This document shows, one piece after another, positions 9,876-60,265 of a stretch of DNA of 60,271 bases. How positions within the stretch are numbered: position 1 is the first letter of the stretch; the number at the start of each line of letters is the position of its first letter. Position numbers and translations under genes: made by a program. Location: positions 1-60,271 of the forward strand of contig JACPZB010000066.1 of the NCBI GenBank assembly GCA_016195725.1, in the 5' to 3' direction. Source of the DNA: Deltaproteobacteria bacterium. Lineage in GTDB: Bacteria > Desulfobacterota > GWC2-55-46 > UBA9637. A model generated the notes under the pieces. That model was not told the origin of the DNA, did no database searches, and saw nothing but the letters and a program-made list of their open reading frames with translations.

Positions 9876-11000
9876 ATGGGGCGGGGCATAAAATTATTTA
9901 AAATCTTAGGCATCCAGATTTCTCTGGACTATACCTGGTTTATTGTATTTGGCCTGGTAGCGTGGAGTCTTGCCCAGGGCTACTTTCCACTTACTCTTCC
10001 GGGATTAAGTATTATGAGCTATGTGCTCATCGGAATTACCTCTGCAATCCTGCTGTTTGCCTGCGTATTAATCCATGAGCTTTCCCATTCATACACATCT
10101 AACAAACTGGGACTAGACATAAAGGAGATAAAGCTTTTTATCTTTGGGGGTGTTGCTCAGCTAACAAAGGAGCCTGATGATCCGACAACCGAGTTAAAGA
10201 TTGCCGTCGCAGGGCCTGCTGCGAGCATTGCGCTTGCCGGGATATTTTGGATTCTGACACAGTTGGTAAAAACCTTTTACCTCTATCCGATTGCGGCTGC
10301 AATCTTTGAATATCTTACCACTATCAATATTGTCCTCGTCATCTTCAATATGATACCTGGTTTTCCCTTAGACGGCGGAAGGGTTTTAAGGGCCCTCTGG
10401 TGGAAAAAAACCGGAGATATTCATAAGGCAACCCGGGTCGCAAGCCTGGCTGGCAAAGGCTTTTCAATGCTCCTCATCCTTTTCGGTTTTATGCAGATAT
10501 TCTTCGGCAACTTTGTCGGCGGCCTATGGATGGTCTTTATCGGCATGTTTCTCCAGCAGGCAGCAGAAAGCAGTTACAGCCAGCTTTTAGTAAAGAAGGC
10601 CCTTGAACAAATAAAGATTGGTGATGCAATGACAAGAAATGTTGTTGTTGTGACAGAGGATTCTACCCTTGCGACTGTAGTTGAGAAATATTTTTTTGGC
10701 TACCACTTTGTCGGCTTCCCTGTTGCATCTGATGGGCGCATTGTTGGGATGATAACATTAAATAATGTACGGACTATCCCCAAGGAACTGTGGGCTACAA
10801 CCCTTGTAAGGGATGTACTGAATAGAATTACGCCTGATATCATCTTAAGCCCAGAAGATAATGCAATGGATGCCCTTTCAAGGATGATAAGCCTTGATGT
10901 CGGAAGGATTCTGATTATGGAGAACGGCAAACTCGTGGGCATAATCACCAGAAGGGATATCATGAAACTCATGGAATTCAAGGTAGACCTTGGTGTGTGA
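9876..11000 (+). CDS. M50 (site-2 protease family) zinc metalloprotease with C-terminal CBS pair
   Basis: HELSHS zinc motif in a TM segment and an FPLDGGRV motif. The C-terminal 130 aa look like tandem CBS domains. The ORF is open from 9837 (TTG), but the ATG at 9876 is preferred. Confidence 0.8.
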
Positions 11001-52622: not shown

Positions 52623-53420
52623 ATGACTGAGCAACGACAGCAGTTTGTTTTCAAGAACTTCACAGTGCCATTACCCCGATGAGGGGATAATGCACGGAAT
52701 GCGACGCATCTCATTGGGAAAGAATTCGGAAGAGGCTCTTTTGGTGTGGTCGATGAATGCACAGACTCGTGGGGCAACAAGTTGGCTGCCAAGGTGTTGG
52801 TGCCAAAACAGCAACCGTACGAGGCGGTTCGGAGTAATTGGAGTCATGAATTTAAGGTATTGGTCACCTTCTACCTTATAACAGAGCGGTGTCATTCAAC
52901 ACTCAGCAATCTGTTTCAAATTCCAAACTACAACGGATTGACTTGGATTATGCCTGCAGCACGGTGCCTTCTTCAATCTGGGCACTTCCTGCACAGAGCC
53001 GATGTTGTTCACAAAGATATTTATCCCGGCAACATTTTCACGTCCATCATCAAAGATGAAATCCTTCCCGGCCAGTATAACGCTATACGATTCAAACTGG
53101 GTGACTGCGGGATATCTATGGTGGTCAACGAAATAGCTATGTTCAACACCATTGTTGCCGAGTGGATGTTGCCCCCAGAATTTTGAAGCCCGACTGAATT
53201 CGGAAACATAGATTACCGCATAGATATCTATCACTGTGGCTTACTTATCCTGCAGGTCTTGTAAGGCAGATATTTATCGCTCACGAAACAACAGGTTGTT
53301 GACGGTCTACCTCGCCAGATGGCAGAAGCGTTATCAATGCCTTTCACTTTTGCGCTTTCCAAGGCATTGCGTCGTCACGTTGCCCATAGGACTGCTTCCG
53401 CAAATCTTTGCGAAGCCCGC
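52623..53420 (+). pseudogene. Ser/Thr protein kinase-like gene with three in-frame stop codons
   Basis: A single frame reads GRGSFGVV, LAAKVL, HKDIYPGNIF, KLGDCGIS, WMLPPEF and DIYHCGLLILQVL. It is interrupted by TGA (52680), TGA (53184) and TAA (53262). Confidence 0.7.
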
Positions 53421-53975
53421 CGCATAAGCGCTAAAGAGCTTCGTCACTATTATACGCAATGGATAGAAGGGAACAAAACAGATGAATCCCTTTTGCATAA
53501 GAAACAGGACGCTCATCCAGGCTCAAGACGAACCCCTAAAGAAGCAGAACGAAATATCATAAAGGCTTATAGAAGATTCGGCTCCAACAGATATAAGCTT
53601 GTTCTTCTTTTTAAGCCTTGCTGCTTGGATAAGACGCCTTCACCTGCCGCAATGAATTTACGGGAGCTCTTGAAAAAGAGCATCCCTTCAAAACCATGCG
53701 CAGTGAATTGGGCATAAGGCACATATACACAAAGCCTTACAGGCCCCAGACCAACGGAAAGATAGAGGCCTTCTAAAAGATATTTAAAAACGAATTCTTT
53801 TATCCCAAGTCGTTAGAATCAGAGCAGGATATGATTCTAAACCTTGGGCGTTTTCTCTTTGAATATAACCGCTTGAGAAAGCGCGGCGGCTTGAACTATG
53901 AAACACCTTTTGATAAACTTCAAAAAGTTGCCGAATTGGCGAGCTATCACAAGCGTCCTTTTATCCCATATTAAT
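53421..53975 (+). mobile_element. IS481-family transposase remnant (internally deleted and frameshifted)
   Basis: It has an N-terminal HTH-like piece (ISAKELRHYYTQW...) and a C-terminal integrase-core piece (GIRHIYTKPYRPQTNGKIEAF*...FEYNRLRKRGGLNYETPFDKL), with stops and frame changes. The catalytic core N-half is absent. Confidence 0.65.
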
Positions 53976-54082: not shown

Positions 54083-55636
54083 TTACTTGATCCTCTCCAG
54101 GAAGAATTTTACCTGTTTATCATTAGATTTTAATGCCAGAGCATTTTTAAATGCTAATTTTGCCTTCTGCTCATCTCCAATTTCATAATAACCCATACCG
54201 AGAGCCTTCCAGAGAGGAAAATCTTCTCCAAATTTCTGAACGCCCTCTTCCAGACGTGTTATTGCCGTCTTTTTATCCTGTAAAAGCTGATAGCAAAGCG
54301 CCAGATAGTAGTAGGCAACCGGTGTGGGTAATACCTGAATTGATTGCTCAAAAAACTGTGCGGCATTCTGGTAATCATTCTGTTTAAAGTGACCGTATGC
54401 CTGAGTCATCAAGTTTCCTGCCTTGCCAAAATCATTCTGCTGATTGACTTTACTTGCAACGGTTGGTTGCTGTTGTTGAGGGGTCCCCTGGGAAGGTGCC
54501 TCAGATATCTCCGTCCCTCCGCCGCTACCCATCGCCTGTACCCTAGCATACACATTTTCATTTATCGGAACGGTGAAGTAAATTTTAAGGAAGGTGTCCG
54601 CATTCAGCGAACCCCCCGCCAGATTAGTCTTTGACTTAAAATCTGAGAAGGCTGCTTTTGTTTTTTCATCTACCTTTCCGTTTATATCAATATCGTAGCC
54701 GTGTAAGTACAGTTTCTCCTGCATCATACTAATTCTACTGGTATCATCCAGCTTCGGGAATCCGCGCATCCAGCTTTTAATCACTATTTCATCAGACACG
54801 GCGTCTTCGCCAAACACCCTCCAGTACGGAATAGCTGCGTATCTTCCCATAAGCTGTATCATGCCTGACTGAACAAGAAGACGGACAGCATCATGTCTTC
54901 CCTGAACTATTTTTTTGCTCCCTTTTGAACCAAAAGTTGGACCGAAAAGTGTAATTCCGAATTCCTGTTTCCTCTGTCCTTTTTGCACTTCCATGCTGTT
55001 TACAACATTCATGCCTGGAATGCCTGAAAGCGTCCTGAAATCTTTTAAATTGAAATCTACTGTAATACGGGCTTTTGTAGCCATAGAAGCATCGCTATGT
55101 TCTATGCTTAGGGTCTGTGATGGCATAACTTTCTTTACTTGAGAGAATTCTGCCTCAGCTCCTACATCTATACCCTTGTCCCATGATTCAAGTGCCCTGT
55201 CAAATTCGGTTATTGCACCAGTTACCACAATATCAGGTATTAACTTATTGCTGAAATCTGAATAACCGGTCTGCTGCATGGACTGAACGAATTCAGGGTC
55301 ATATTCAATGAAAACAACATTTTCGCCCATAGAGTTGAGCGCGCTTTTGACAATCTCTGTTATATTCTGCTGTATTTCACTTCCGGTTGCAACAGACGCG
55401 CCTGTTTTATCAACAATATCTTTCACCATAACCTTTAGCGGTTGCGCCCTGTGAATTTCCATCATCAGGCCAAAAGTCTTTAAATTATCTGTGAAGGCGG
55501 TGACCTTCTGTACAGGGGCAGTCGTCTCCACCGGCACTTCCATACGCTTCGGCTCCATTGTGGCGCAAGACAGTAACAACAATGGTAATGCCAATGAGAG
55601 TAAAACATAGGTAAATCCTCTTGCAACACCTTTCAT
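54083..55636 (-). CDS. Lipoprotein with CsgG-like secretion-channel domain, PG-binding-like segment and C-terminal TPR repeats
   Basis: Lipobox LLLLSC. The block LKVMVKDIVDKTG..TEIVKSALNS, then IVVTGAITEF, ITVDFNLKDFRT and AVRLLVQSGMIQL, is collinear with E. coli CsgG as I recall it. YGHFKQNDYQNAAQFFEQ and related segments are TPR-like. Confidence 0.5.
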   Translation of the reverse strand: MKGVARGFTYVLLSLALPLLLLSCATMEPKRMEVPVETTAPVQKVTAFTDNLKTFGLMMEIHRAQPLKVMVKDIVDKTGASVATGSEIQQNITEIVKSALNSMGENVVFIEYDPEFVQSMQQTGYSDFSNKLIPDIVVTGAITEFDRALESWDKGIDVGAEAEFSQVKKVMPSQTLSIEHSDASMATKARITVDFNLKDFRTLSGIPGMNVVNSMEVQKGQRKQEFGITLFGPTFGSKGSKKIVQGRHDAVRLLVQSGMIQLMGRYAAIPYWRVFGEDAVSDEIVIKSWMRGFPKLDDTSRISMMQEKLYLHGYDIDINGKVDEKTKAAFSDFKSKTNLAGGSLNADTFLKIYFTVPINENVYARVQAMGSGGGTEISEAPSQGTPQQQQPTVASKVNQQNDFGKAGNLMTQAYGHFKQNDYQNAAQFFEQSIQVLPTPVAYYYLALCYQLLQDKKTAITRLEEGVQKFGEDFPLWKALGMGYYEIGDEQKAKLAFKNALALKSNDKQVKFFLERIK

Positions 55637-55748
55637 ATCTATCTCCTCTCTTGAAATGTTTATTTAAATATATCCCAATGCCTTCTTATCAGGCAGATTC
55701 TTTTCGCATCTGATTATAAATCTGAAACAGAATAATCCAAACACCACA

Positions 55749-56815
55749 TTCAATGAGCAATTGCAACACAATGAGATAAGACCTCAAAAGGCATCTGAAA
55801 GTCAAGACACTTTTTGGGTCGGTCGTTGATTAAGATATTCTATACGGTTGAGTTGATGTTGGGTGATTTTAACAGAATCCGTCTTCTTTGACAAAAAGCG
55901 GCGAACTAATCCAACAGCATTCTCAACAGAGCCTTTTCCCAGGCTATGACAAGGATTGCAAAAATAGGCCTGCCCCCGAATGCATCTATCGGGGGACTGT
56001 GTTCCAAGACTTTTATTGGTCTTTAGATGCTCTACATTCTCTGAACCGTTGTCATAGGTTATAGTCCGCCTCATGAAAGGCGGATACGATTGAAGGCTGT
56101 TTTCAATTGCCTGAGATAATAAGGCAGACGACTTTTGTTTGATCTTTTTAAGATGAATGATTTGACTTGTGCGTTCCAGCATAACAGCCACAGCTGCCTG
56201 ACTTTGACGTGATATTATCGTATCGGTTTCCCAATGGCCAGGCTGTTTGCGTTCTTCGACTGATTTTGCTATGTGCTCAATTGACCTTCGCACCGGAATA
56301 TGGCTTGTACACTGTTTACGAGGATTCCCACGTGGCAGTCGTTTCCTGTGGGCATGTGGCAAATAAACTGTTAAATCTTCTTCGTATTGTTTTTTGTTAT
56401 AGATAAACCGGTATATGGCCTCATGACCGATGGATACATTCGGATGATCCTTAGACCATCGTCCTGAGATGAGTTTTGGCGACCAGCCAAGTTTTAGTTT
56501 TTCAACCACATAGGCCATAAGCTTTTGGTCTTTGAGTCTCGGCCGCTGACCCAGGACTTGCATTGTCGCTCTTTTGCGCCTTTATCTGCTTTATGAGGCA
56601 GATAGCAATCATAGACTGGTGATTTGTTGCGTTTCGGTTCCCGTGAGATTGCGCTTTTGTCCCGGTTTATGATTTTCGCTATTTCAGTTATTTTGAAGCC
56701 TTGAGCGCGAAGAACAGCTATCTTCTCTCTCAACGCTTGCGAAGTATTTATAATTTTGCTTGTGCATTCACTTTAGGATACCGTCCTTTCCTAAGTGTTG
56801 CGCTTCCTTATTGAA
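55749..56815 (-). mobile_element. IS30-family insertion sequence (1067 bp) with frameshifted transposase
   Basis: Terminal inverted repeats TTCAATGAGCAATTGCAACAC (55749-55769) and GTGTTGCGCTTCCTTATTGAA (56795-56815) match at 17 of 21 positions. The transposase is split into ORFs 56733-56494 and 56563-55802 (WSPKLISGRW, HWETDTII, TYDNGSEN, GSVENAVGLVRRFL). Confidence 0.8.
55802..56733 (-). pseudogene. IS30 transposase, interrupted by one frameshift near 56560-56580
   Basis: The N-terminal HTH part and the DDE part lie in different frames with a 70-nt overlap of the two ORFs. Confidence 0.75.
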
Positions 56816-56845
56816 CTGGGGAACAAATAAAACGCAAGCAATAGC

Positions 56846-57226
56846 CTATTTGTCCACTATTTGAGTCTTTGGCCCTTTGCTCTCATCAATGATAATGATA
56901 TCGCCTTTTACACTGCCGCCAGGCCCCAGCACCACGCTGTTCATATTTCCTGAGGCATCAGTTTTGCCGCCAGACTTGCTGGATGAACTGCTATCATTGC
57001 TTTGGTCGCTCTTTTTTTGTCTTACCTTTACCTTGCTCTTTGCATCCATCTTCTTGAATTTTATGTTTGGTGAGAATTCACCCATCTCGTGGTCAGACTG
57101 AATATCATCGTCGGTGTATTTTCCAATCTTATCGTCCAGATCGCCTGCAATAGATGGGGTAGAGAGAGATAACGCTATGAATATGGTAAATATGAATATT
57201 ATTGTGCATAGATAAACTCTTCTCAT
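56846..57226 (-). CDS. Small secreted Ser/Asp/Lys-rich protein ending in one unit related to the neighbouring 36-aa repeat
   Basis: Signal peptide MRRVYLCTIIFIFTIFIALSLSTPSIAG. The C-terminal GNMNSVVLGPGGSVKGDIIII parallels ANMGSVGIKGSDVKGAVIN of the repeat protein. Confidence 0.6.
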   Translation of the reverse strand: MRRVYLCTIIFIFTIFIALSLSTPSIAGDLDDKIGKYTDDDIQSDHEMGEFSPNIKFKKMDAKSKVKVRQKKSDQSNDSSSSSKSGGKTDASGNMNSVVLGPGGSVKGDIIIIDESKGPKTQIVDK

Positions 57227-57303
57227 TGTAGTCGCCCCTCTTGTGCTTTTACAGGGATGGGAGTATTCACTCCATCCCACCCCCGTAAAAAACACTAATC
57301 ACC

Positions 57304-57813
57304 TTACTTTACGTTTACTGAACCCATATTGGCTTCGTTGCCTTTGCCGATTGCAATGTTTGCTGAGCCCTTAACATCTGACTTGTTGATAATTGCGCCT
57401 TTAACCTTTGAGCTCTTGATGTTTACTGAACCCATATTGGCTTTGTTGCCTTCACCAATTGCAATGTTTGCTGAGCCCTTTACATCTGACTGATTGATAA
57501 CTGCGCCTTTAACATCAGAACCCTTGATGCCTACTGACCCCATGTTAGCTTCATTGCCTTTGCCGATTGCAATGTTTGCTGAGCCCTTAACATCTGACTT
57601 ATTGATAACTGCGCCTTTAACCTTTGAGCCCTCGATGCCTACTGCTCCCACATTGGCTTTATTGCCTTCGCCGATTGCAATGTTTGCTGAGCCCTTAACA
57701 TCTGACTTGTTGATTACTGCGCCTTTGATGTCTGACCCTGCAAAGGCCATTGCTGCTGTCAAAAACACACCCATACATCCCATAGCTATAATTTTTTTAA
57801 ACATTGGTAACAC
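57304..57813 (-). CDS. Secreted repeat protein; the mature part is exactly four 36-aa repeats (candidate beta-solenoid or functional-amyloid subunit)
   Basis: 25-aa signal peptide ending AFA, then 4 copies of GS(D/K)VKGAVINKSDVKGSANIAIG(E/K)GN(K/E)AN(M/V)GSV(G/N)I(K/E). GGAGG precedes the ATG. Confidence 0.8.
   Translation of the reverse strand: MLPMFKKIIAMGCMGVFLTAAMAFAGSDIKGAVINKSDVKGSANIAIGEGNKANVGAVGIEGSKVKGAVINKSDVKGSANIAIGKGNEANMGSVGIKGSDVKGAVINQSDVKGSANIAIGEGNKANMGSVNIKSSKVKGAIINKSDVKGSANIAIGKGNEANMGSVNVK
57313..57744. repeat. Four tandem 108-bp repeats (coding)
   Basis: Units start at 57313, 57421, 57529 and 57637. High nucleotide identity was read directly. Confidence 0.9.
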
Positions 57814-58078
57814 CTCCTCTTCAGTTTTTTACGAAATTTGCTATAAAGAACTCTATTTTATGATAAAATATTCCTGCTCCACCTCCTTTCGTCATTTAAA
57901 TTATAGTTTACTAGTGTCATAATAATACAATTATAAGATATAAATGTCAATGGAAAATGTGAAACCGTTATTTTTAAGGAGGTAAATGGCCGTGAAGGCC
58001 GCAACTAAAAAAATTCCTTAAATCATCTTAAAGGGCGGCAGGATGTAACCCCTGCCGCCACTAAAACAACTTGAGAAT

Positions 58079-58810
58079 ATGGGAAATGCCCGTTCACATG
58101 CCATAGGATTTCAGATTATTGTCTTTACCATGTTATTACTCGCAGGATGCGCATCTGCTCCGCCGCAGGGTTATTATTCAAAGCAAGGCACGCAAAGGGC
58201 TTATCAAATTGACGGCAAATGGTATTCTCCGGTTGATTCATCAAATGGATATGAAGAGGAGGGGATTGCATCGTGGTATGGCAGAGACTTTCACGGCAAC
58301 AAAACCTCCAATGGAGAAACCTATAACATGCATGCCATGACCGCTGCACACAAGACCCTTCCCCTTGGCACTTATGTAAAGGTTACAAGGCTTGATAACG
58401 GGAAAGAGACTGTTGTAAGGATCAATGACCGTGGGCCTTTTGTGAAAGGGAGGATTATTGACCTTTCTTACAAAGCGGCCTCGGAAGTGGGCATTGCAGA
58501 CAGCGGCACTGCTAAAGTTAAGATAGCGGCTCTGGGAGATGCTGTCGGCGATAAACTTGTAGCAAGGGATTATCAACATGGAAATTTCATGGTGCAGGCG
58601 GGCGCATTCACGGTAAACTCCAATGCGGCAAAATTAAGGGACAACCTCTTGCAACGATATAGTAATGTTTCAATAACTACATACGACAGAGGCGATACGG
58701 TTTTTTACAGAGTCAGGGTTGGCGGCACAGTTAGTTTGAAGGAAGCCGAAAGGCTTAAAAGCAGGTTAGAGGCAGAAGGGGTGGAATCACCGTTTGTGGT
58801 TGCGGATTAA
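58079..58810 (+). CDS. rlpA: Septal ring lytic transglycosylase RlpA (DPBB plus SPOR domains), lipoprotein
   Basis: Lipobox [40 protein letters not shown]......[10 protein letters not shown], and a C-terminal SPOR-like [14 protein letters not shown]. Confidence 0.9.
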
Positions 58811-58811
58811 A
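58776..58811. repeat. 36-bp direct repeat, copy 1 (last 11 codons plus stop of rlpA)
   Basis: AAGGGGTGGAATCACCGTTTGTGGTTGCGGATTAAA matches 59536-59571 with 2 mismatches. Confidence 0.9.
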
Positions 58812-58822
58812 GGGGGAGATTC

Positions 58823-59221
58823 TCACATCCATTCAACATGAACTTCATCTCTCAGCTTCTTAAATTCCTTGTCGCCGGTAACCAGCGGATAATCCATGCG
58901 CAGCGCAAGGGCAGCGGCAAAACAATCGCCAAAGGCTATGGAATGGTTTGCCTTGAATTGCGCCGCCTGATAAGTGATGTCTCTGTCTATATCAACCAGC
59001 TCGATGGGCAATTGCTCCATGATAAGCAAAGCCTCCTCTGCCTTTTCTTTTCCCTTAGAGCGATACATTGAATAATAGACCTCGCCCCAGTTGATAATGC
59101 TCATCGCAAGGCGGATTCTGCCGTTTTCAGCCTGCTCCAGAATCCGCTCCACCTTTGCCGCCCCGGCTTCATCCTCAAAATAGGCGATGACGGCATAGCT
59201 GTCCAGAATAAATCCCTTCAA
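58823..59221 (-). CDS. vapC: PIN-domain toxin (VapC family)
   Basis: 132-aa ORF with an N-terminal ILDSYAVIAY (Asp), a central E, and a C-terminal FGDCFAAALA..PLVTGD.EF pattern typical of PIN. Confidence 0.8.
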   Translation of the reverse strand: MKGFILDSYAVIAYFEDEAGAAKVERILEQAENGRIRLAMSIINWGEVYYSMYRSKGKEKAEEALLIMEQLPIELVDIDRDITYQAAQFKANHSIAFGDCFAAALALRMDYPLVTGDKEFKKLRDEVHVEWM

Positions 59222-59448
59222 TGTTTTGCCTCTTCCTTTCTGTCTTCAACAAGGGCTTTCAGCGCCGAAGCCCCTGTTCTGAATCTTCCCCGCGCTTCTT
59301 TAACCGGCTCTTTGAGCAATGGTTTCAGGATGATATCCCCGTCCTTATCAAGAACAATCACCCTTGTCCCTTTTGAGATATGATATTTTTTGCGAATCTC
59401 GGCAGGGATAACCACCTGGCCTTTTATGGTTGTCCTTACTATGGTCAT
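59218..59448 (-). CDS. vapB: AbrB/SpoVT-type antitoxin (VapB)
   Basis: 76-aa ORF with a GQVVIPAEIRKKYHISKGTRV swapped-hairpin motif. It overlaps vapC by 4 nt. Confidence 0.8.
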   Translation of the reverse strand: MTIVRTTIKGQVVIPAEIRKKYHISKGTRVIVLDKDGDIILKPLLKEPVKEARGRFRTGASALKALVEDRKEEAKH

Positions 59449-59663: not shown

Positions 59664-60024
59664 ATGGAAGAACGAGATACGAAAGACCTGTTGTCATATA
59701 TTGAAGGTTTTGATTGGGACAAAGGAAACATTACCAAAAACTGGGAAAAGCATAAGGTCAGCCATAGTGAATGTGAAGAGGTGTTTTTCACCACCCCGTT
59801 TGTTGTAAAGGATGATGAGCCTCATTCTTCCGTTGAAGACCGTTATTATGTGTTAGGCAAGACTGATAAAGACTGTGTTAGGCAAGACTGATAAAGACAG
59901 ACTGCTTTTTATCGTTTTTACTATAAGGAAAAATAAAATAAGGGTCATATCAGCAAGGGATATGAACAGAAAGGAGATAAAGATTTATGAGCAAATTGAA
60001 AAAGATGCCAAAATTCAAGAGTGA
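59664..60024 (+). pseudogene. brnT: BrnT-type (DUF497) toxin gene disrupted by a 25-bp tandem duplication
   Basis: FDWDKGNITKNWEKHKVSHSECEEVFF...RYYVLGKTDKD, then a frameshift. The +1 frame continues RLLFIVFTIRKNKIRVISARDMNRKEIKIYE, the normal BrnT C-terminus. Confidence 0.75.
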
Positions 60025-60265
60025 AAAAGAAGAGACTGAATTCTGGGCCACCCATGATTCAACGGAATATATTGATTATTCTAAAGCAAGGAGGGTTATG
60101 TTTCCGAATTTAAAACCATCTACCAGAACCATATCAATCCGGCTGCCCGAATCGCTTTACGAGCATCTGAAAGTGTTGGCAAACAAGAGGGATGTTCCTT
60201 ATCAATCGTTGCTCAAGATGTTTCTGGCAGAGAAGGTGGAAGACGAACTGCATGCTGTAAAATAA
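59987..60265 (+). CDS. brnA: BrnA-type (RHH/CopG-like) antitoxin
   Basis: 92-aa ORF with FKSEKEETEFWATHDSTEY and ISIRLPESLYEHLKVLANKRDVPYQSLLKMFLAE motifs. It overlaps the brnT 3' end. Confidence 0.8.
   Translation: MSKLKKMPKFKSEKEETEFWATHDSTEYIDYSKARRVMFPNLKPSTRTISIRLPESLYEHLKVLANKRDVPYQSLLKMFLAEKVEDELHAVK

What the first reader, a model, noticed from the sequence alone, without database searches (positions are those of the whole stretch)
57304..57813. Secreted protein made only of four near-identical 36-aa Gly/Asn/Ser/Lys repeats with a curli-like GxGNxA core
After a 25-aa signal peptide, the 144-aa mature protein is exactly 4 x 36 aa: GS(D/K)VKGAVINKSDVKGSANIAIG(E/K)GN(K/E)ANMGSV(G/N)IK. 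These are encoded by 4 x 108-bp tandem DNA repeats. Each unit looks like two 18-aa strand-turn-strand halves with conserved Asn, Gly and Ser positions.

The IGxGNxAN segment matches the G-X-G-N-X-A core of the curli CsgA repeat consensus (S-X5-Q-X-G-X-G-N-X-A-X3-Q), but the repeat length and the Lys-rich half differ. This suggests a novel beta-solenoid or functional-amyloid fibre subunit. The high DNA identity between units implies recent expansion or concerted evolution, and possibly copy-number variation.
Basis: partly seen in the sequence, partly recalled or inferred. Interest (0 to 1): 0.75.

Follow-up and report, generated by a model that had tools for sequence, protein, structure and literature searches.

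The report
Repeat-only fibre subunit beside CsgG-like channel
This small secreted protein, made of nothing but four 36-residue repeats, is the first gene of a conserved, undescribed three-gene operon that also encodes a curli-type (CsgG-fold) outer-membrane channel, so it is most likely the building block of a new kind of bacterial surface fibre.

Summary
A minus-strand gene at 57304-57804 encodes a 22-aa Sec signal peptide plus exactly 4 x 36 aa, from 108-bp tandem repeats that are 82-90% identical.

There is no curlin-repeat match, no 18-aa half-repeat periodicity, and GxGNxA is not conserved in the family.

In 23 of 27 loci the repeat gene is followed by a small secreted protein (window 56846-57226) and a lipoprotein (54083-55636). 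These loci come from Desulfuromonadales, Desulfobulbaceae, Desulfobacterales, Nitrospinaceae and cultured Citrifermentans bremense. The predicted structure of the lipoprotein matches CsgG (Foldseek E=9e-10).

Mature proteins in this family have no caps: they start and end exactly at repeat boundaries. Copy number ranges from 2 to at least 13. AlphaFold predicts an all-beta repeat stack (mature part pLDDT ~95), and its best PDB match, though weak, is the FapC amyloid. A strong stem-loop follows the gene in nearly every locus.

Best reading (about 0.55): this is the major subunit of an undescribed CsgG-dependent beta-solenoid fibre. Export and polymerisation are inferred, not shown.

No family model or paper describes it. 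I class it as a new variant of a known kind.

The parts
57922..57950 (-). Promoter-like site (TTGACA-17-TATTAT, 11 of 12 matches) about 115 nt upstream of the start codon
   Evidence: This is a consensus match only, and the number of such sites in the region is no higher than in shuffled sequence. The closest relative L005 has a similar TTGACA...TATAAT upstream of its gene. No Rfam riboswitch is found in the leader.
57739..57804 (-). Start codon ATG (57802-57804) and 22-aa Sec signal peptide MFKKIIAMGCMGVFLTAAMAFA, with an AFA|G signal-peptidase I site
   Evidence: GGAGGTG lies 5 nt upstream of the ATG. The homologues align from this Met, and all have an AxA site immediately before repeat position 1.
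57631..57738 (-). Repeat 1 (A-type, IGEGNKAN): GSDIKGAVINKSDVKGSANIAIGEGNKANVGAVGIE
57523..57630 (-). Repeat 2 (B-type, IGKGNEAN): GSKVKGAVINKSDVKGSANIAIGKGNEANMGSVGIK
57415..57522 (-). Repeat 3 (A-type): GSDVKGAVINQSDVKGSANIAIGEGNKANMGSVNIK
57304..57414 (-). Repeat 4 (B-type, carrying the family's commonest C-terminal signature GNEANMGSVxVK) plus the stop codon. The protein ends exactly at the repeat boundary.
   Evidence: 47 of 60 family members end exactly 19 aa after the last ANIAIG motif.
57243..57295 (-). Strong RNA stem-loop immediately after the stop codon, with no T-tract. It is inferred to be an intra-operon attenuator or mRNA stabiliser that would raise the ratio of subunit to accessory proteins.
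   Evidence: dG -29.9 kcal/mol, z = -4.1, and 0 of 200 shuffles fold as well. A hairpin occupies the same position, with unrelated sequence, in all 20 related loci examined; dG is -20 to -32 in 19 of them and -14.8 in one.
56846..57226 (-). Conserved 126-aa small secreted protein (a signal peptide, an acidic DLDDxIxKxTDD segment, a Lys/Ser-rich linker, and a C-terminal NMNSVVLGPGGSVKGDIIIIDESKG). It is a candidate nucleator, anchor or adaptor.
   Evidence: It is present directly after the repeat gene in 23 loci. It has no Pfam, NCBIfam or PDB match. Its C-terminus weakly resembles a repeat junction (hhalign P=0.0097 over 30 columns; hmmsearch best E=0.03). The public record calls it hypothetical, MBI3398865.1.
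55720..56821 (-). IS30-like insertion (HTH_38 plus rve, with the transposase split into two overlapping ORFs) between the small-protein gene and the lipoprotein gene. It is not part of the system and interrupts the operon in this genome.
   Evidence: The boundaries come from alignment to the uninterrupted relative L005 and are approximate.
54083..55636 (-). 517-aa outer-membrane lipoprotein. It has a lipobox Cys24, a CsgG-fold domain (about residues 45-270) with two long beta-hairpins, a PG_binding_1-like domain (about 300-340) and C-terminal TPR repeats (about 405-510).
   Evidence: The AlphaFold model has pLDDT 79. The top 25 Foldseek hits are all CsgG, led by 6l7a_A at E=9e-10, prob 1.00, TMt 0.48. 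Pfam CsgG hits 20 of 46 homologues weakly, best 5.6e-5, but not the window protein itself. Cys24 is invariant. The gene is conserved in 23 loci.

Best explanation
The gene encodes the major structural subunit of a previously undescribed surface-fibre system that works on the curli principle (type VIII-like secretion).

**Proposed mechanism.**
1. The pre-protein crosses the inner membrane through Sec, and its 22-aa signal peptide is removed.
2. This leaves a 144-aa polypeptide consisting of four 36-aa repeats with no capping residues at either end.
3. The polypeptide passes the outer membrane, unfolded, through an oligomeric channel formed by the CsgG-fold lipoprotein encoded two genes downstream.
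4. Outside the cell it folds into a beta-solenoid in which repeats stack on one another.
5. Because both ends are uncapped repeat faces, subunits add head-to-tail into a filament.
6. The small secreted protein encoded between the two genes is the best candidate for the nucleator or anchor.

**Charge alternation (inferred).** In this lineage, A-type repeats (E24/K27) alternate with B-type repeats (K24/E27). This would place opposite charges above one another along the stack, including across the subunit-subunit joint, because the last repeat is B-type and the first is A-type.

**What is shown.** The gene, the repeats, the signal peptide, the conserved three-gene operon, the CsgG fold of the lipoprotein and the predicted all-beta repeat fold.

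**What is inferred.** Export through that channel, polymerisation, the role of the small protein and the charge ladder.
For: 1. **Architecture.** A Sec signal peptide is followed by exactly 4 x 36 aa and nothing else. Across the family, mature N-termini start at repeat position 1, and 47 of 60 proteins end exactly at a repeat boundary. Soluble beta-solenoids normally carry caps; CsgA-type fibre subunits expose repeat faces (established knowledge).
2. **Predicted fold.** AlphaFold2 gives pLDDT 89 overall and about 95 for the mature part, all-beta, with the same five-strand pattern in every repeat. The best PDB match is the FapC amyloid (E=2.8e-4). Other solenoids and the CsgA fibril appear further down the list.
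3. **Conserved operon.** The order repeat gene, small secreted protein, lipoprotein is conserved in 23 of 27 loci across several orders and phyla. It is also present in cultured Citrifermentans bremense. Three of the four loci lacking the operon are second copies in genomes that carry the full operon on another contig.
4. **The lipoprotein has the CsgG fold.**
   - The top 25 Foldseek hits are all CsgG, E down to 9e-10, prob 1.00.
   - Membrane-inserted conformations score better than the pre-pore form.
   - The model has four long strands forming two hairpins.
   - The lipobox Cys is invariant.
   - Pfam CsgG hits 20 of 46 homologues weakly.
   - There is a weak NCBIfam HfaB hit.
5. **Stem-loop.** A strong stem-loop sits directly after the subunit gene at the same position in all 20 loci examined, with no sequence conservation. 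This is typical of operons that over-produce a structural subunit.
6. **Repeat number.** It varies from 2 to at least 13, and paralogues reach 1302 aa. Repeats show concerted evolution. Curli subunits vary in repeat number in the same way (PMC12822426).
7. **Conserved positions.** Asn, Gly, Ala and Ser positions are conserved: N10 99%, S12 96%, A28 98%, G31 97%. Functional amyloids have Asn/Gln ladders (PMC12822426).
8. **C-terminal repeat.** It preferentially keeps a GNEA signature, in 26 of 47 last repeats against 34 of 179 other repeats. This suggests a special role for the terminal face.
Against: - There is no experimental evidence for export, surface location or fibrils.
- There is no sequence homology to CsgA or FapC, and no CsgB, CsgC, CsgE, CsgF or Fap homologue in the operon.
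- The Foldseek match to FapC is weak (prob 0.38, TM 0.17). AlphaFold readily gives confident solenoids for any regular repeat.
- The CsgG fold also occurs in non-channel lipoproteins. FlgT, HpaA, GNA1162 and PelC appear lower in the same hit list.
- The window lipoprotein itself does not reach any Pfam CsgG score at E<=1.
- The mature subunit lacks an N-terminal targeting segment like N22 of CsgA.
- The similarity between the small protein and a repeat is only P~0.01.
- In this genome an IS30-like element separates the lipoprotein gene from the first two genes, so the system may be impaired here.
- Repeat counts come from short-read MAG assemblies and may be collapsed. L032 has a run of N inside the gene.
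Confidence: 0.55

Rival explanations
1. The protein is a non-polymerising envelope or surface protein. On this reading it is a monomeric beta-solenoid that stays in the periplasm or on the cell surface. It would act as a partner, coat or adhesin of a ring-like complex built by the CsgG-fold lipoprotein, which carries a peptidoglycan-binding-like domain. In most lineages LPP20/FlgT-like proteins would also take part, by analogy with flagellar H-ring or basal-disc lipoproteins rather than with curli.
For: - The Foldseek list for the lipoprotein also contains FlgT, the Vibrio LPHT ring, HpaA, GNA1162 and PelC.
- Most non-TPR operons add LPP20-like and FlgT_N-like proteins and a DUF2807 beta-helix protein.
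- A PG_binding_1-like domain is found in 35 of 46 lipoprotein homologues.
- Nothing demonstrates polymerisation.
Against: - The complete absence of caps, and the 2 to at least 13-fold variation in repeat number, are hard to reconcile with a defined monomeric partner.
- CsgG proper gives far better matches (E 1e-9) than the ring proteins (E 1e-4). The model has the long hairpins that CsgG uses to span the membrane.
- The LPP20, FlgT-like and DUF2807 genes are absent from the window lineage and from C. bremense, so they are not core to the system.
- The stem-loop after the subunit gene suggests the subunit is made in large excess.
Confidence: 0.28
2. The protein is a secreted beta-solenoid whose flat, regular faces bind a surface, such as ice, a mineral or a polysaccharide, in the manner of an ice-binding protein or adhesin. 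On this reading filament formation is not its function.
For: - Ice-binding proteins and polysaccharide-active beta-helices appear among the weak Foldseek matches.
- The window protein is strongly cationic, with 20 K against 11 D+E.
- The carriers are sediment and groundwater bacteria.
Against: - All those matches have E>0.1 and TM about 0.1.
- Known ice-binding solenoids are capped and have a fixed length.
- Surface residues are not conserved across the family; positions 1, 3, 13 and 34 are the most variable.
- This reading does not explain the dedicated CsgG-fold partner any better than the fibre model does.
Confidence: 0.07
3. The protein is a divergent member of the pentapeptide-repeat or hexapeptide (left-handed beta-helix) families, with the usual soluble functions of those families.
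For: - phmmer against the PDB hits pentapeptide-repeat proteins: 2j8k E=1.1e-9, and designed beta1 proteins at about 1e-5.
- There are weak NCBIfam pentapeptide hits.
- The homologue P0029 passes the Pfam Hexapep_GlmU threshold, 26.1 bits against 23.3.
- One large paralogue hits Pfam Pentapeptide.
Against: - The period is 36 (or alternating 36/38), which is not a multiple of 5.
- There is no Pfam Pentapeptide or Hexapep hit for the window protein at E<=1.
- NCBIfam scores are far below the cut-offs (22.7 against 125).
- A family profile finds no pentapeptide-repeat protein in the PDB, so the phmmer hits reflect shared composition.
- Predicted strands of 7-8 residues do not fit either fold.
- Those families are cytoplasmic, whereas this protein has a signal peptide and a CsgG-fold partner.
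Confidence: 0.04

Closest known systems
Curli (E. coli CsgA/CsgB subunits secreted through the CsgG lipoprotein channel; type VIII secretion)
   Same: - The subunit is Sec-exported and made almost entirely of imperfect repeats rich in Gly, Asn, Ser and Ala, with uncapped ends and a variable repeat number.
- A CsgG-fold lipoprotein is encoded in the same cluster.
- A small secreted accessory protein is encoded alongside.
   Different: - There is no detectable sequence relationship to curlin repeats.
- The repeat is 36-38 aa with five predicted strands, against about 20 aa with two strands.
- There is no N22-like targeting segment.
- There is no CsgB-like paralogue in the window, and no CsgC, CsgD, CsgE or CsgF.
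- The channel protein carries extra PG-binding-like and TPR (or Ala/Pro-rich) domains.
- The genes form a single operon, subunit first.
Fap functional amyloid (Pseudomonas FapC/FapB, FapF trimeric barrel; PDB 9u4u)
   Same: - It is the best structural match of the predicted subunit (E=2.8e-4).
- Each FapC imperfect repeat forms one Greek-key layer of the solenoid (PMC12822426).
- Here two of the strands are conserved on both faces (with the caveat that positions 18-23 were used as the alignment anchor), which fits a multilayer cross-section.
- Both have conserved Asn positions.
   Different: - There is no sequence similarity.
- FapB and FapC almost invariably have three repeats joined by long linkers (PMC12822426); here there are 2 to at least 13 contiguous repeats with no linkers.
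- There is no FapA, FapD, FapE or FapF; the channel has the CsgG fold instead.
- TM-score is only 0.17.
Caulobacter holdfast anchor HfaA/HfaB/HfaD (HfaB is a CsgG homologue)
   Same: A CsgG-family lipoprotein is encoded next to small secreted proteins that are thought to form a stable surface multimer. A weak NCBIfam HfaB hit to residues 32-108 of the window lipoprotein (E=0.006) was the first hint of the fold.
   Different: The HfaB score is 15.8 bits against a cut-off of 300. No HfaA or HfaD comparison was possible, because I had no sequences to hand. The repeat-only subunit has no known counterpart in that system.
Pentapeptide-repeat proteins (for example Np275/Np276, MfpA)
   Same: Both are repetitive beta-solenoids with Asn, Ala, Gly and Ser in the turns. 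They are the only significant single-sequence PDB hits.
   Different: The period is 36, not 5 or 20. The protein is secreted. The family profile does not retrieve them, and there is no Pfam Pentapeptide hit for the window protein.

Membership tests
Curlin repeat / CsgA-CsgB (Pfam PF07012) | Repeat of about 19-23 aa matching S-x5-Q-x-G-x-G-N-x-A-x3-Q, detectable with the Curlin_rpt model | tested here: not met
   There is no Curlin_rpt hit at E<=1 for the window protein or at E<=10 for five relatives. The period is 36 aa. Only GxGNxA coincides, and it is not conserved in the family.
Curlin repeat / CsgA-CsgB (Pfam PF07012) | N-terminal non-repeat targeting segment (N22) recognised by CsgG/CsgE | tested here: not met
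   The mature N-terminus coincides with repeat position 1 in the window protein and its homologues.
Curli system (type VIII secretion) | CsgG-family lipoprotein channel encoded with the subunit | tested here: met
   The fold-level match is E=9e-10, prob 1.00, and the top 25 hits are all CsgG. Synteny is conserved in 23 loci. At the sequence level the match is only sub-threshold.
Curli system (type VIII secretion) | Accessory proteins CsgE, CsgF, CsgC and the nucleator CsgB | tested here: not met
   No such Pfam hits appear on the small protein or on the other operon proteins. The CsgE hits on long Desulfobulbaceae subunits are additive repeat artefacts, because no single stretch passes.
Curli system (type VIII secretion) | Extracellular amyloid fibres (Congo red or ThT binding, detergent resistance) | not testable with these tools
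   This needs experiment.
CsgG family (Pfam PF03783), for the lipoprotein at 54083-55636 | Score above the Pfam gathering threshold | tested here: not met
   The window protein gives no hit at E<=1. 20 of 46 homologues hit at E<=0.1, best 5.6e-5. A family profile search of PDB sequences does not retrieve CsgG.
CsgG family (Pfam PF03783), for the lipoprotein at 54083-55636 | Lipidated N-terminal Cys, CsgG alpha/beta fold and two long beta-hairpins that form the barrel | tested here: met
   The lipobox LLSC24 has an invariant Cys. The model has strands 136-163, 175-199, 205-230 and 234-244. Foldseek matches membrane-form CsgG best. Oligomeric state and actual membrane insertion were not testable.
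Fap amyloid (FapC/FapB) | Three imperfect repeats separated by linkers, within a fapABCDEF operon that includes the FapF barrel and FapD protease | tested here: not met
   The repeats are contiguous and number 2 to at least 13. No Fap-like genes are in the neighbourhood. There is no sequence hit to 9u4u.
Fap amyloid (FapC/FapB) | Each repeat forms one multi-strand (Greek-key) layer of the solenoid | tested here: inconclusive
   FapC is the top Foldseek hit, but prob is 0.38 and TM 0.17. There are five strands per 36 aa.
Pentapeptide repeat family (Pfam PF00805) | Tandem A(D/N)LXX pentapeptides, four per coil | tested here: not met
   The period is 36. There is no PF00805 hit for the window protein. 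NCBIfam gives 22.7 bits against a cut-off of 125. The phmmer PDB hits disappear when a family profile is used.
Left-handed beta-helix / hexapeptide repeat | [LIV]-[GAED]-x2-[STAV]-x hexads, three per 18-residue coil | tested here: inconclusive
   One distant homologue (P0029) passes Hexapep_GlmU at 26.1 bits against 23.3. The window protein has no hexapeptide hit. By eye only 2-3 of its 6 hexads fit the motif. Predicted 7-8-residue strands argue against this fold.

The most novel reading that the evidence does not exclude
This is a third, independent family of bacterial functional amyloid or fibre, alongside curli and Fap. It would combine a FapC-like multilayer subunit built from 36-aa repeats with a CsgG-type channel and a new small nucleator.

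The subunit would be a pure, uncapped repeat array. Its alternating A/B repeats, with charges swapped at positions 24 and 27, would lock the register and make the subunit-subunit joint identical to the joints inside a subunit.

The system is widespread in Desulfobacterota (Geobacterales, Desulfuromonadales, Desulfobulbaceae, Desulfobacterales) and Nitrospinota. It can be studied experimentally in Citrifermentans bremense.
Probability: 0.4. Interest if true: 0.8.

Novelty: new variant of a known kind. Interest (0 to 1): 0.7.

Why it matters
**Why it matters biologically.** Only two dedicated secretion and assembly pathways for functional amyloid in Gram-negative bacteria are well characterised: curli with CsgG, and Fap with FapF. 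A system that pairs a CsgG-fold channel with a subunit unrelated to CsgA would show that CsgG-type channels serve more than one fibre family. The subunit's repeat is nearly twice as long as a curlin repeat, and its nearest structural neighbour is FapC. It would also give a natural test of what a CsgG-type channel recognises, because there is no N22-like segment.

**Where it occurs.** The carriers include metal- and sulfur-cycling sediment bacteria (Geobacterales, Desulfuromonadales, Desulfobulbaceae). In these organisms, attachment to minerals and the biofilm matrix are central to physiology.

**Possible applications.** The subunit is a minimal, cap-free array built from 11 amino-acid types, with a naturally variable repeat number. 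That makes it attractive as a programmable protein-fibre scaffold. The extended CsgG homologue may interest nanopore engineering.

**Annotation gap.** None of the searches of the public protein collection returned this protein. It has probably been missed by gene callers.

Tried and rejected
- **Curlin homology.** Pfam found no Curlin_rpt hit, and hhalign against E. coli CsgA aligned nothing. Rejected.
- **Two 18-aa halves.** The halves are unrelated, and the predicted strand pattern is 3/8/7/4/4. Rejected.
- **Pfam LBP_C hit on the window protein** (28.5 bits, no single stretch passing), and **CsgE, YajR_YAM and Hirudin hits** on long Desulfobulbaceae subunits. These are summed weak matches to many repeats. 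Rejected as artefacts.
- **Pentapeptide or hexapeptide membership.** See the membership table. Rejected or inconclusive.
- **Sequence-profile search of the PDB with the lipoprotein family.** It found no CsgG, only a weak peptidoglycan-binding-domain hit. Only the structure comparison revealed CsgG.
- **Small protein as a repeat-bearing, CsgB-like nucleator.**
  - A single-repeat HMM found nothing.
  - A junction-spanning HMM gave best E=0.03, with many orthologues hitting at the same place.
  - hhalign gave P=0.0097.
  - I keep this as a suggestion only.
- **Strictly even repeat number.** Odd counts (3, 5, 7, 9, 13) occur. The A/B alternation holds in the window lineage and in Desulfobulbaceae, but not in Desulfobacterales (QT/KT). 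Rejected as a rule.
- **Riboswitch in the long leader.** Rfam finds none in the window or directly upstream of the gene in 8 related loci.
- **The other conserved operon genes** (LPP20-like, p98, DUF2807, p135, p138). tblastn does not find them anywhere in the window, in L005 or at the C. bremense locus.
- **Literature.** Five searches found no paper on this family or operon.
- **Failed look-ups.**
  - The look-up of encoding contigs failed three times because the service was busy, so the Methylococcales homologue P0028 was never examined.
  - The neighbourhoods of P0001 and P0025 showed no CsgG-like gene, but P0025 lies at a contig end.
Full report
**1. The observation**

The minus-strand ORF 57304..57813 is present. 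The sequence shows GGAGGTG five bases upstream of the ATG at 57804. Homologues align from that Met. The likely product is therefore 166 aa: a 22-aa Sec signal peptide (MFKKIIAMGCMGVFLTAAMAFA, with cleavage after AFA) and a 144-aa mature part that is exactly 4 x 36 aa.

Tandem Repeats Finder reports a 108-bp period, 3.8 copies, 87% matches and no indels. Units are 82-90% identical in DNA. The mature protein contains only G, K, N, I, A, S, V, D, E, M and Q.

The exception is the claim that each unit is two similar 18-aa halves. The halves share 1 of 18 residues, and the predicted strand pattern is not two-fold.

**2. It is a real, unannotated gene family**

A search of 5.8 billion proteins gave 31 homologues. 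All are unnamed or "hypothetical", and most are about 93 aa, that is a signal peptide plus two repeats. An exhaustive profile search of 1.84 billion representatives gave 267 clusters at E<=1e-3.

A scan of one genome per species returned 28 loci. They come from Desulfuromonadales (Trichloromonas), Desulfobulbaceae, Desulfobacterales, Desulfospira and Nitrospinaceae MAGs.

No Pfam or NCBIfam family covers the window protein. The one match above a curated cut-off, Pfam LBP_C, has no single stretch that passes and is a summed-repeat artefact.

The exact window protein is absent from the public protein collection. Its two neighbours are present as hypothetical proteins of a "Deltaproteobacteria bacterium" MAG whose contig has the length of this window. 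The gene was probably not called in the public record.

**3. Anatomy of the family**

The repeat consensus is x-S-x-[VI]-x-G-x-V-x-N-x-S-x-V-x-x-A-A-N-I-A-I-G-x-x-N-x-A-N-M-G-S-V-x-[IM]-x. Positions G6, N10, S12, A28 and G31 are at least 96% conserved. Positions 18-23 were used as the alignment anchor, so their conservation is partly imposed by the method. However, the unanchored alignment also shows N19, A21 and G23 as nearly invariant.

Copy number in the retrieved loci is 2, 3, 4, 5, 6, 7, 8, 10, 12 or 13. The Citrifermentans bremense protein has 9 repeats. Some loci carry a second, larger paralogue of 480-1302 aa directly upstream.

47 of 60 proteins end exactly 19 residues after the last ANIAIG motif, which is at a repeat boundary. 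The last repeat carries GNEA in 26 of 47 cases, against 34 of 179 other repeats. Signal-peptide AxA sites abut repeat position 1. The mature proteins are therefore pure repeat arrays without caps.

In the window, its close relative L005 and the Desulfobulbaceae, repeats alternate between an A-type (E24...K27) and a B-type (K24...E27). In Desulfobulbaceae the alternation is also between 36 and 38 aa. Proteins start with an A-type repeat and end with a B-type repeat. This alternation is absent in Desulfobacterales, so it is not universal.

Within the window, repeats resemble each other (up to 90%) more than they resemble the orthologous repeats of L005 (73-87%). This indicates concerted evolution.

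**4. Predicted structure of the subunit**

AlphaFold2 was run with a 29-sequence alignment. It gives mean pLDDT 89.4 (93-97 from residue 31 onward; the first mature residues are lower) and pTM 0.78. The model is all-beta, and five strands recur in each repeat.

Foldseek against the PDB gives only weak matches. FapC amyloid 9u4u is first (E=2.8e-4, prob 0.38, TM 0.17). It is followed by pentapeptide-repeat proteins, the CsgA fibril (E=0.16), pectate lyases and ice-binding proteins.

The fold class, a beta-solenoid or stacked repeat, is credible. The detailed topology is not established, and I could not access coordinates to count residues per coil. Strands 17-23 and 28-33 are conserved on both faces, which is more compatible with a multilayer cross-section like that of FapC (PMC12822426) than with the two-sheet arch of CsgA. 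This is inference.

**5. Genomic context is the key evidence**

I clustered all ORFs around the 28 loci. The order repeat gene, small secreted protein of about 110-150 aa, lipoprotein of about 450-525 aa is conserved in 23 loci, including the window.

- **Loci without the operon.** Four of the 27 loci with a recognisable repeat gene lack the downstream genes. Three of them (L017, L020, L023) are second copies in genomes that carry the full operon on another contig. L004 lies at the start of its contig and is followed by unrelated genes.
- **Extra genes in some lineages.** Most lineages add further conserved genes: a protein of about 120-200 aa, a roughly 250-aa LPP20-like protein, a roughly 100-aa protein, a DUF2807 beta-helix protein and a roughly 135-aa protein. 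These are absent from the window, from L005 and from C. bremense. In those three the lipoprotein carries C-terminal TPR repeats instead. The core is therefore three genes.
- **The lipoprotein.**
  - It has an invariant lipobox Cys.
  - Its AlphaFold model (pLDDT 79) has an alpha/beta core with four long strands forming two hairpins.
  - Its top 25 Foldseek hits are all CsgG (6l7a_A E=9e-10, prob 1.00). Membrane-inserted forms score better than the pre-pore form.
  - Sequence support is weak but consistent. Pfam CsgG hits 20 of 46 homologues (best 5.6e-5). There is a weak NCBIfam HfaB hit. One homologue carries a JGI name of "CsgG/PilF".
- **A cultured carrier.** Citrifermentans bremense carries the triad: a subunit of 344 aa with 9 repeats, a small protein of 124 aa, and a CsgG-like TPR lipoprotein of 523 aa.
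- **Stem-loop.** A strong stem-loop follows the subunit gene at the same place in all 20 loci examined, although the sequences are unrelated (dG -20 to -32 kcal/mol in 19 loci and -14.8 in one). In the window it lies at 57243-57295, with dG -29.9 and z = -4.1. This is the arrangement expected when a structural subunit must be made in excess over its assembly factors.

**6. The small protein**

It has a signal peptide, a conserved acidic DLDDGISKFTDD segment, a basic linker, and a C-terminal NMNSVV-G-G-x-VKGDI-IID-SKG segment. It has no Pfam, NCBIfam or PDB relative.

Its C-terminus resembles the junction between two repeats (ANMGSVxIKGSxVKGAVINKS). The statistics are weak: hhalign P=0.0097 over 30 columns, and hmmsearch best E=0.03, although about 16 orthologues hit at the same position. 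I treat a nucleator or anchor role as a hypothesis.

**7. Mechanism proposed**

The pre-protein is exported through Sec and the signal peptide is removed. The unfolded polypeptide then passes through the CsgG-fold channel. It folds outside the cell into a stack of repeats. Uncapped subunits add head-to-tail, possibly templated by the small protein.

The A/B charge alternation would put E over K along the stack and across the subunit joint. The gene, the operon and the folds are shown. Export, polymerisation, nucleation and the charge ladder are inferred. Confidence is about 0.55.

The main rival (about 0.28) is a non-polymerising envelope or surface partner of a CsgG-fold/LPP20-type ring. Minor rivals are a surface-binding solenoid, or membership of the pentapeptide or hexapeptide families.

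**8. Comparison with known systems**

The system works like curli: a repeat-only subunit with a CsgG-fold channel and a small accessory protein. It is not a member of the curlin family. There is no Curlin_rpt or CsgA similarity, the period is 36 aa, there is no N22 segment, and there is no CsgB, CsgC, CsgE or CsgF.

The subunit model sits nearest FapC among PDB structures, but the system is not a Fap system. It has no linkers, a variable repeat number and no Fap genes.

A 2025 review of bacterial functional amyloids surveys curli and Fap operons across GTDB (PMC12822426). None of the passages I read describes this family. Five full-text searches found nothing on it.

I class it as a new variant of a known kind: a CsgG-dependent fibre system with a new subunit family.

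**9. State of the system in this genome**

Compared with L005, about 1.1 kb (roughly 55720-56821) is inserted between the small-protein gene and the lipoprotein gene. The insert encodes an IS30-like transposase split into two ORFs. The lipoprotein gene may therefore be uncoupled from the operon promoter here.

**10. Caveats**

- All evidence is computational.
- AlphaFold tends to give confident solenoids for regular repeats.
- Repeat counts come mainly from short-read MAGs. One locus has an assembly gap inside the gene.
- The CsgG fold also occurs in proteins that are not channels.

Noticed in passing
window 59664-60024 (tandem duplication at 59849-59898): A BrnT-family toxin gene is split into two ORFs by a perfect 25-bp tandem duplication (TRF: period 25, 2.0 copies, 100%). 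Removing one copy in silico restores a 111-aa protein that matches Pfam BrnT_toxin over its full length (E=6.8e-26). The adjacent CopG/BrnA-type antitoxin gene (59987-60265) is intact.
   Followed up: yes
window ~55720-56821: An IS30-like element lies inside the operon, between the small-protein gene and the CsgG-like gene. Its transposase is split into an HTH_38 ORF (56494-56733) and an rve ORF (55802-56563). It is absent from the closest relative L005. A promoter-like site (55894-55866, minus strand) near its end could drive the lipoprotein gene. No terminal inverted repeats were detected.
   Followed up: partly
window 57304-57813: The exact repeat protein, with either start codon, is not in the 15-billion-protein public collection, although both flanking genes of the same contig are. 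The C. bremense 344-aa orthologue was also not found by exact look-up. These low-complexity genes may be systematically dropped or mis-called.
   Followed up: partly
L012, L013, L014, L015, L019, L021, L028 (directly upstream of the repeat gene); L020, L023, L025 (a few kb upstream, opposite strand): Many genomes carry a second, much larger paralogue (284-1302 aa, up to about 30 repeats). In the first seven loci it lies on the same strand directly upstream of the short repeat gene (for example L021 6051-9959, L015 3236-6154). In L020, L023 and L025 a 611-709-aa paralogue lies on the opposite strand a few kb upstream. This could be a major/minor or nucleator/subunit pair, like CsgB/CsgA. The window has no such paralogue.
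   Followed up: partly
L006 3381-3459 and 3439-4898: In a Trichloromonas MAG, a c-di-GMP-I riboswitch (58.8 bits, E=1.5e-8) precedes two further ORFs that by eye look like CsgG-fold lipoproteins. These lie on the same strand about 5 kb upstream of the repeat operon. This hints at second-messenger control of a larger envelope gene cluster.
   Followed up: no
L018, L020, L022, L024, L026, L027, L029 repeat proteins: Long Desulfobulbaceae-type subunits score above the Pfam gathering threshold for CsgE (29-42 bits against 25). In six of the seven no single stretch passes on its own, and YajR_YAM and Hirudin co-hit at similar levels. These are additive repeat artefacts that could mislead automated annotation into calling the proteins curli proteins.
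   Followed up: yes
L032 ~10150-10250: A run of N (scaffold gap) lies inside the orthologous repeat gene of a related MAG. This shows that short-read assemblies break or collapse at this array. The many 93-aa two-repeat homologues from short contigs should be read with that in mind.
   Followed up: no
window 52746-53717: Just downstream of the lipoprotein gene, where other lineages carry further operon genes, there are only gene fragments. These are a partial protein-kinase domain (52746-53186, Pkinase E=1.4e-5, covering part of the profile) and an unassigned 132-aa ORF. The region looks degenerate.
   Followed up: no
window 58079-59448: On the opposite strand, upstream of the repeat gene, lie an RlpA-type lipoprotein (DPBB_1 plus SPOR; 58079-58810) and a VapC (PIN) / MazE-type antitoxin pair (58823-59448). 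Neither is conserved next to the operon in other loci.
   Followed up: partly
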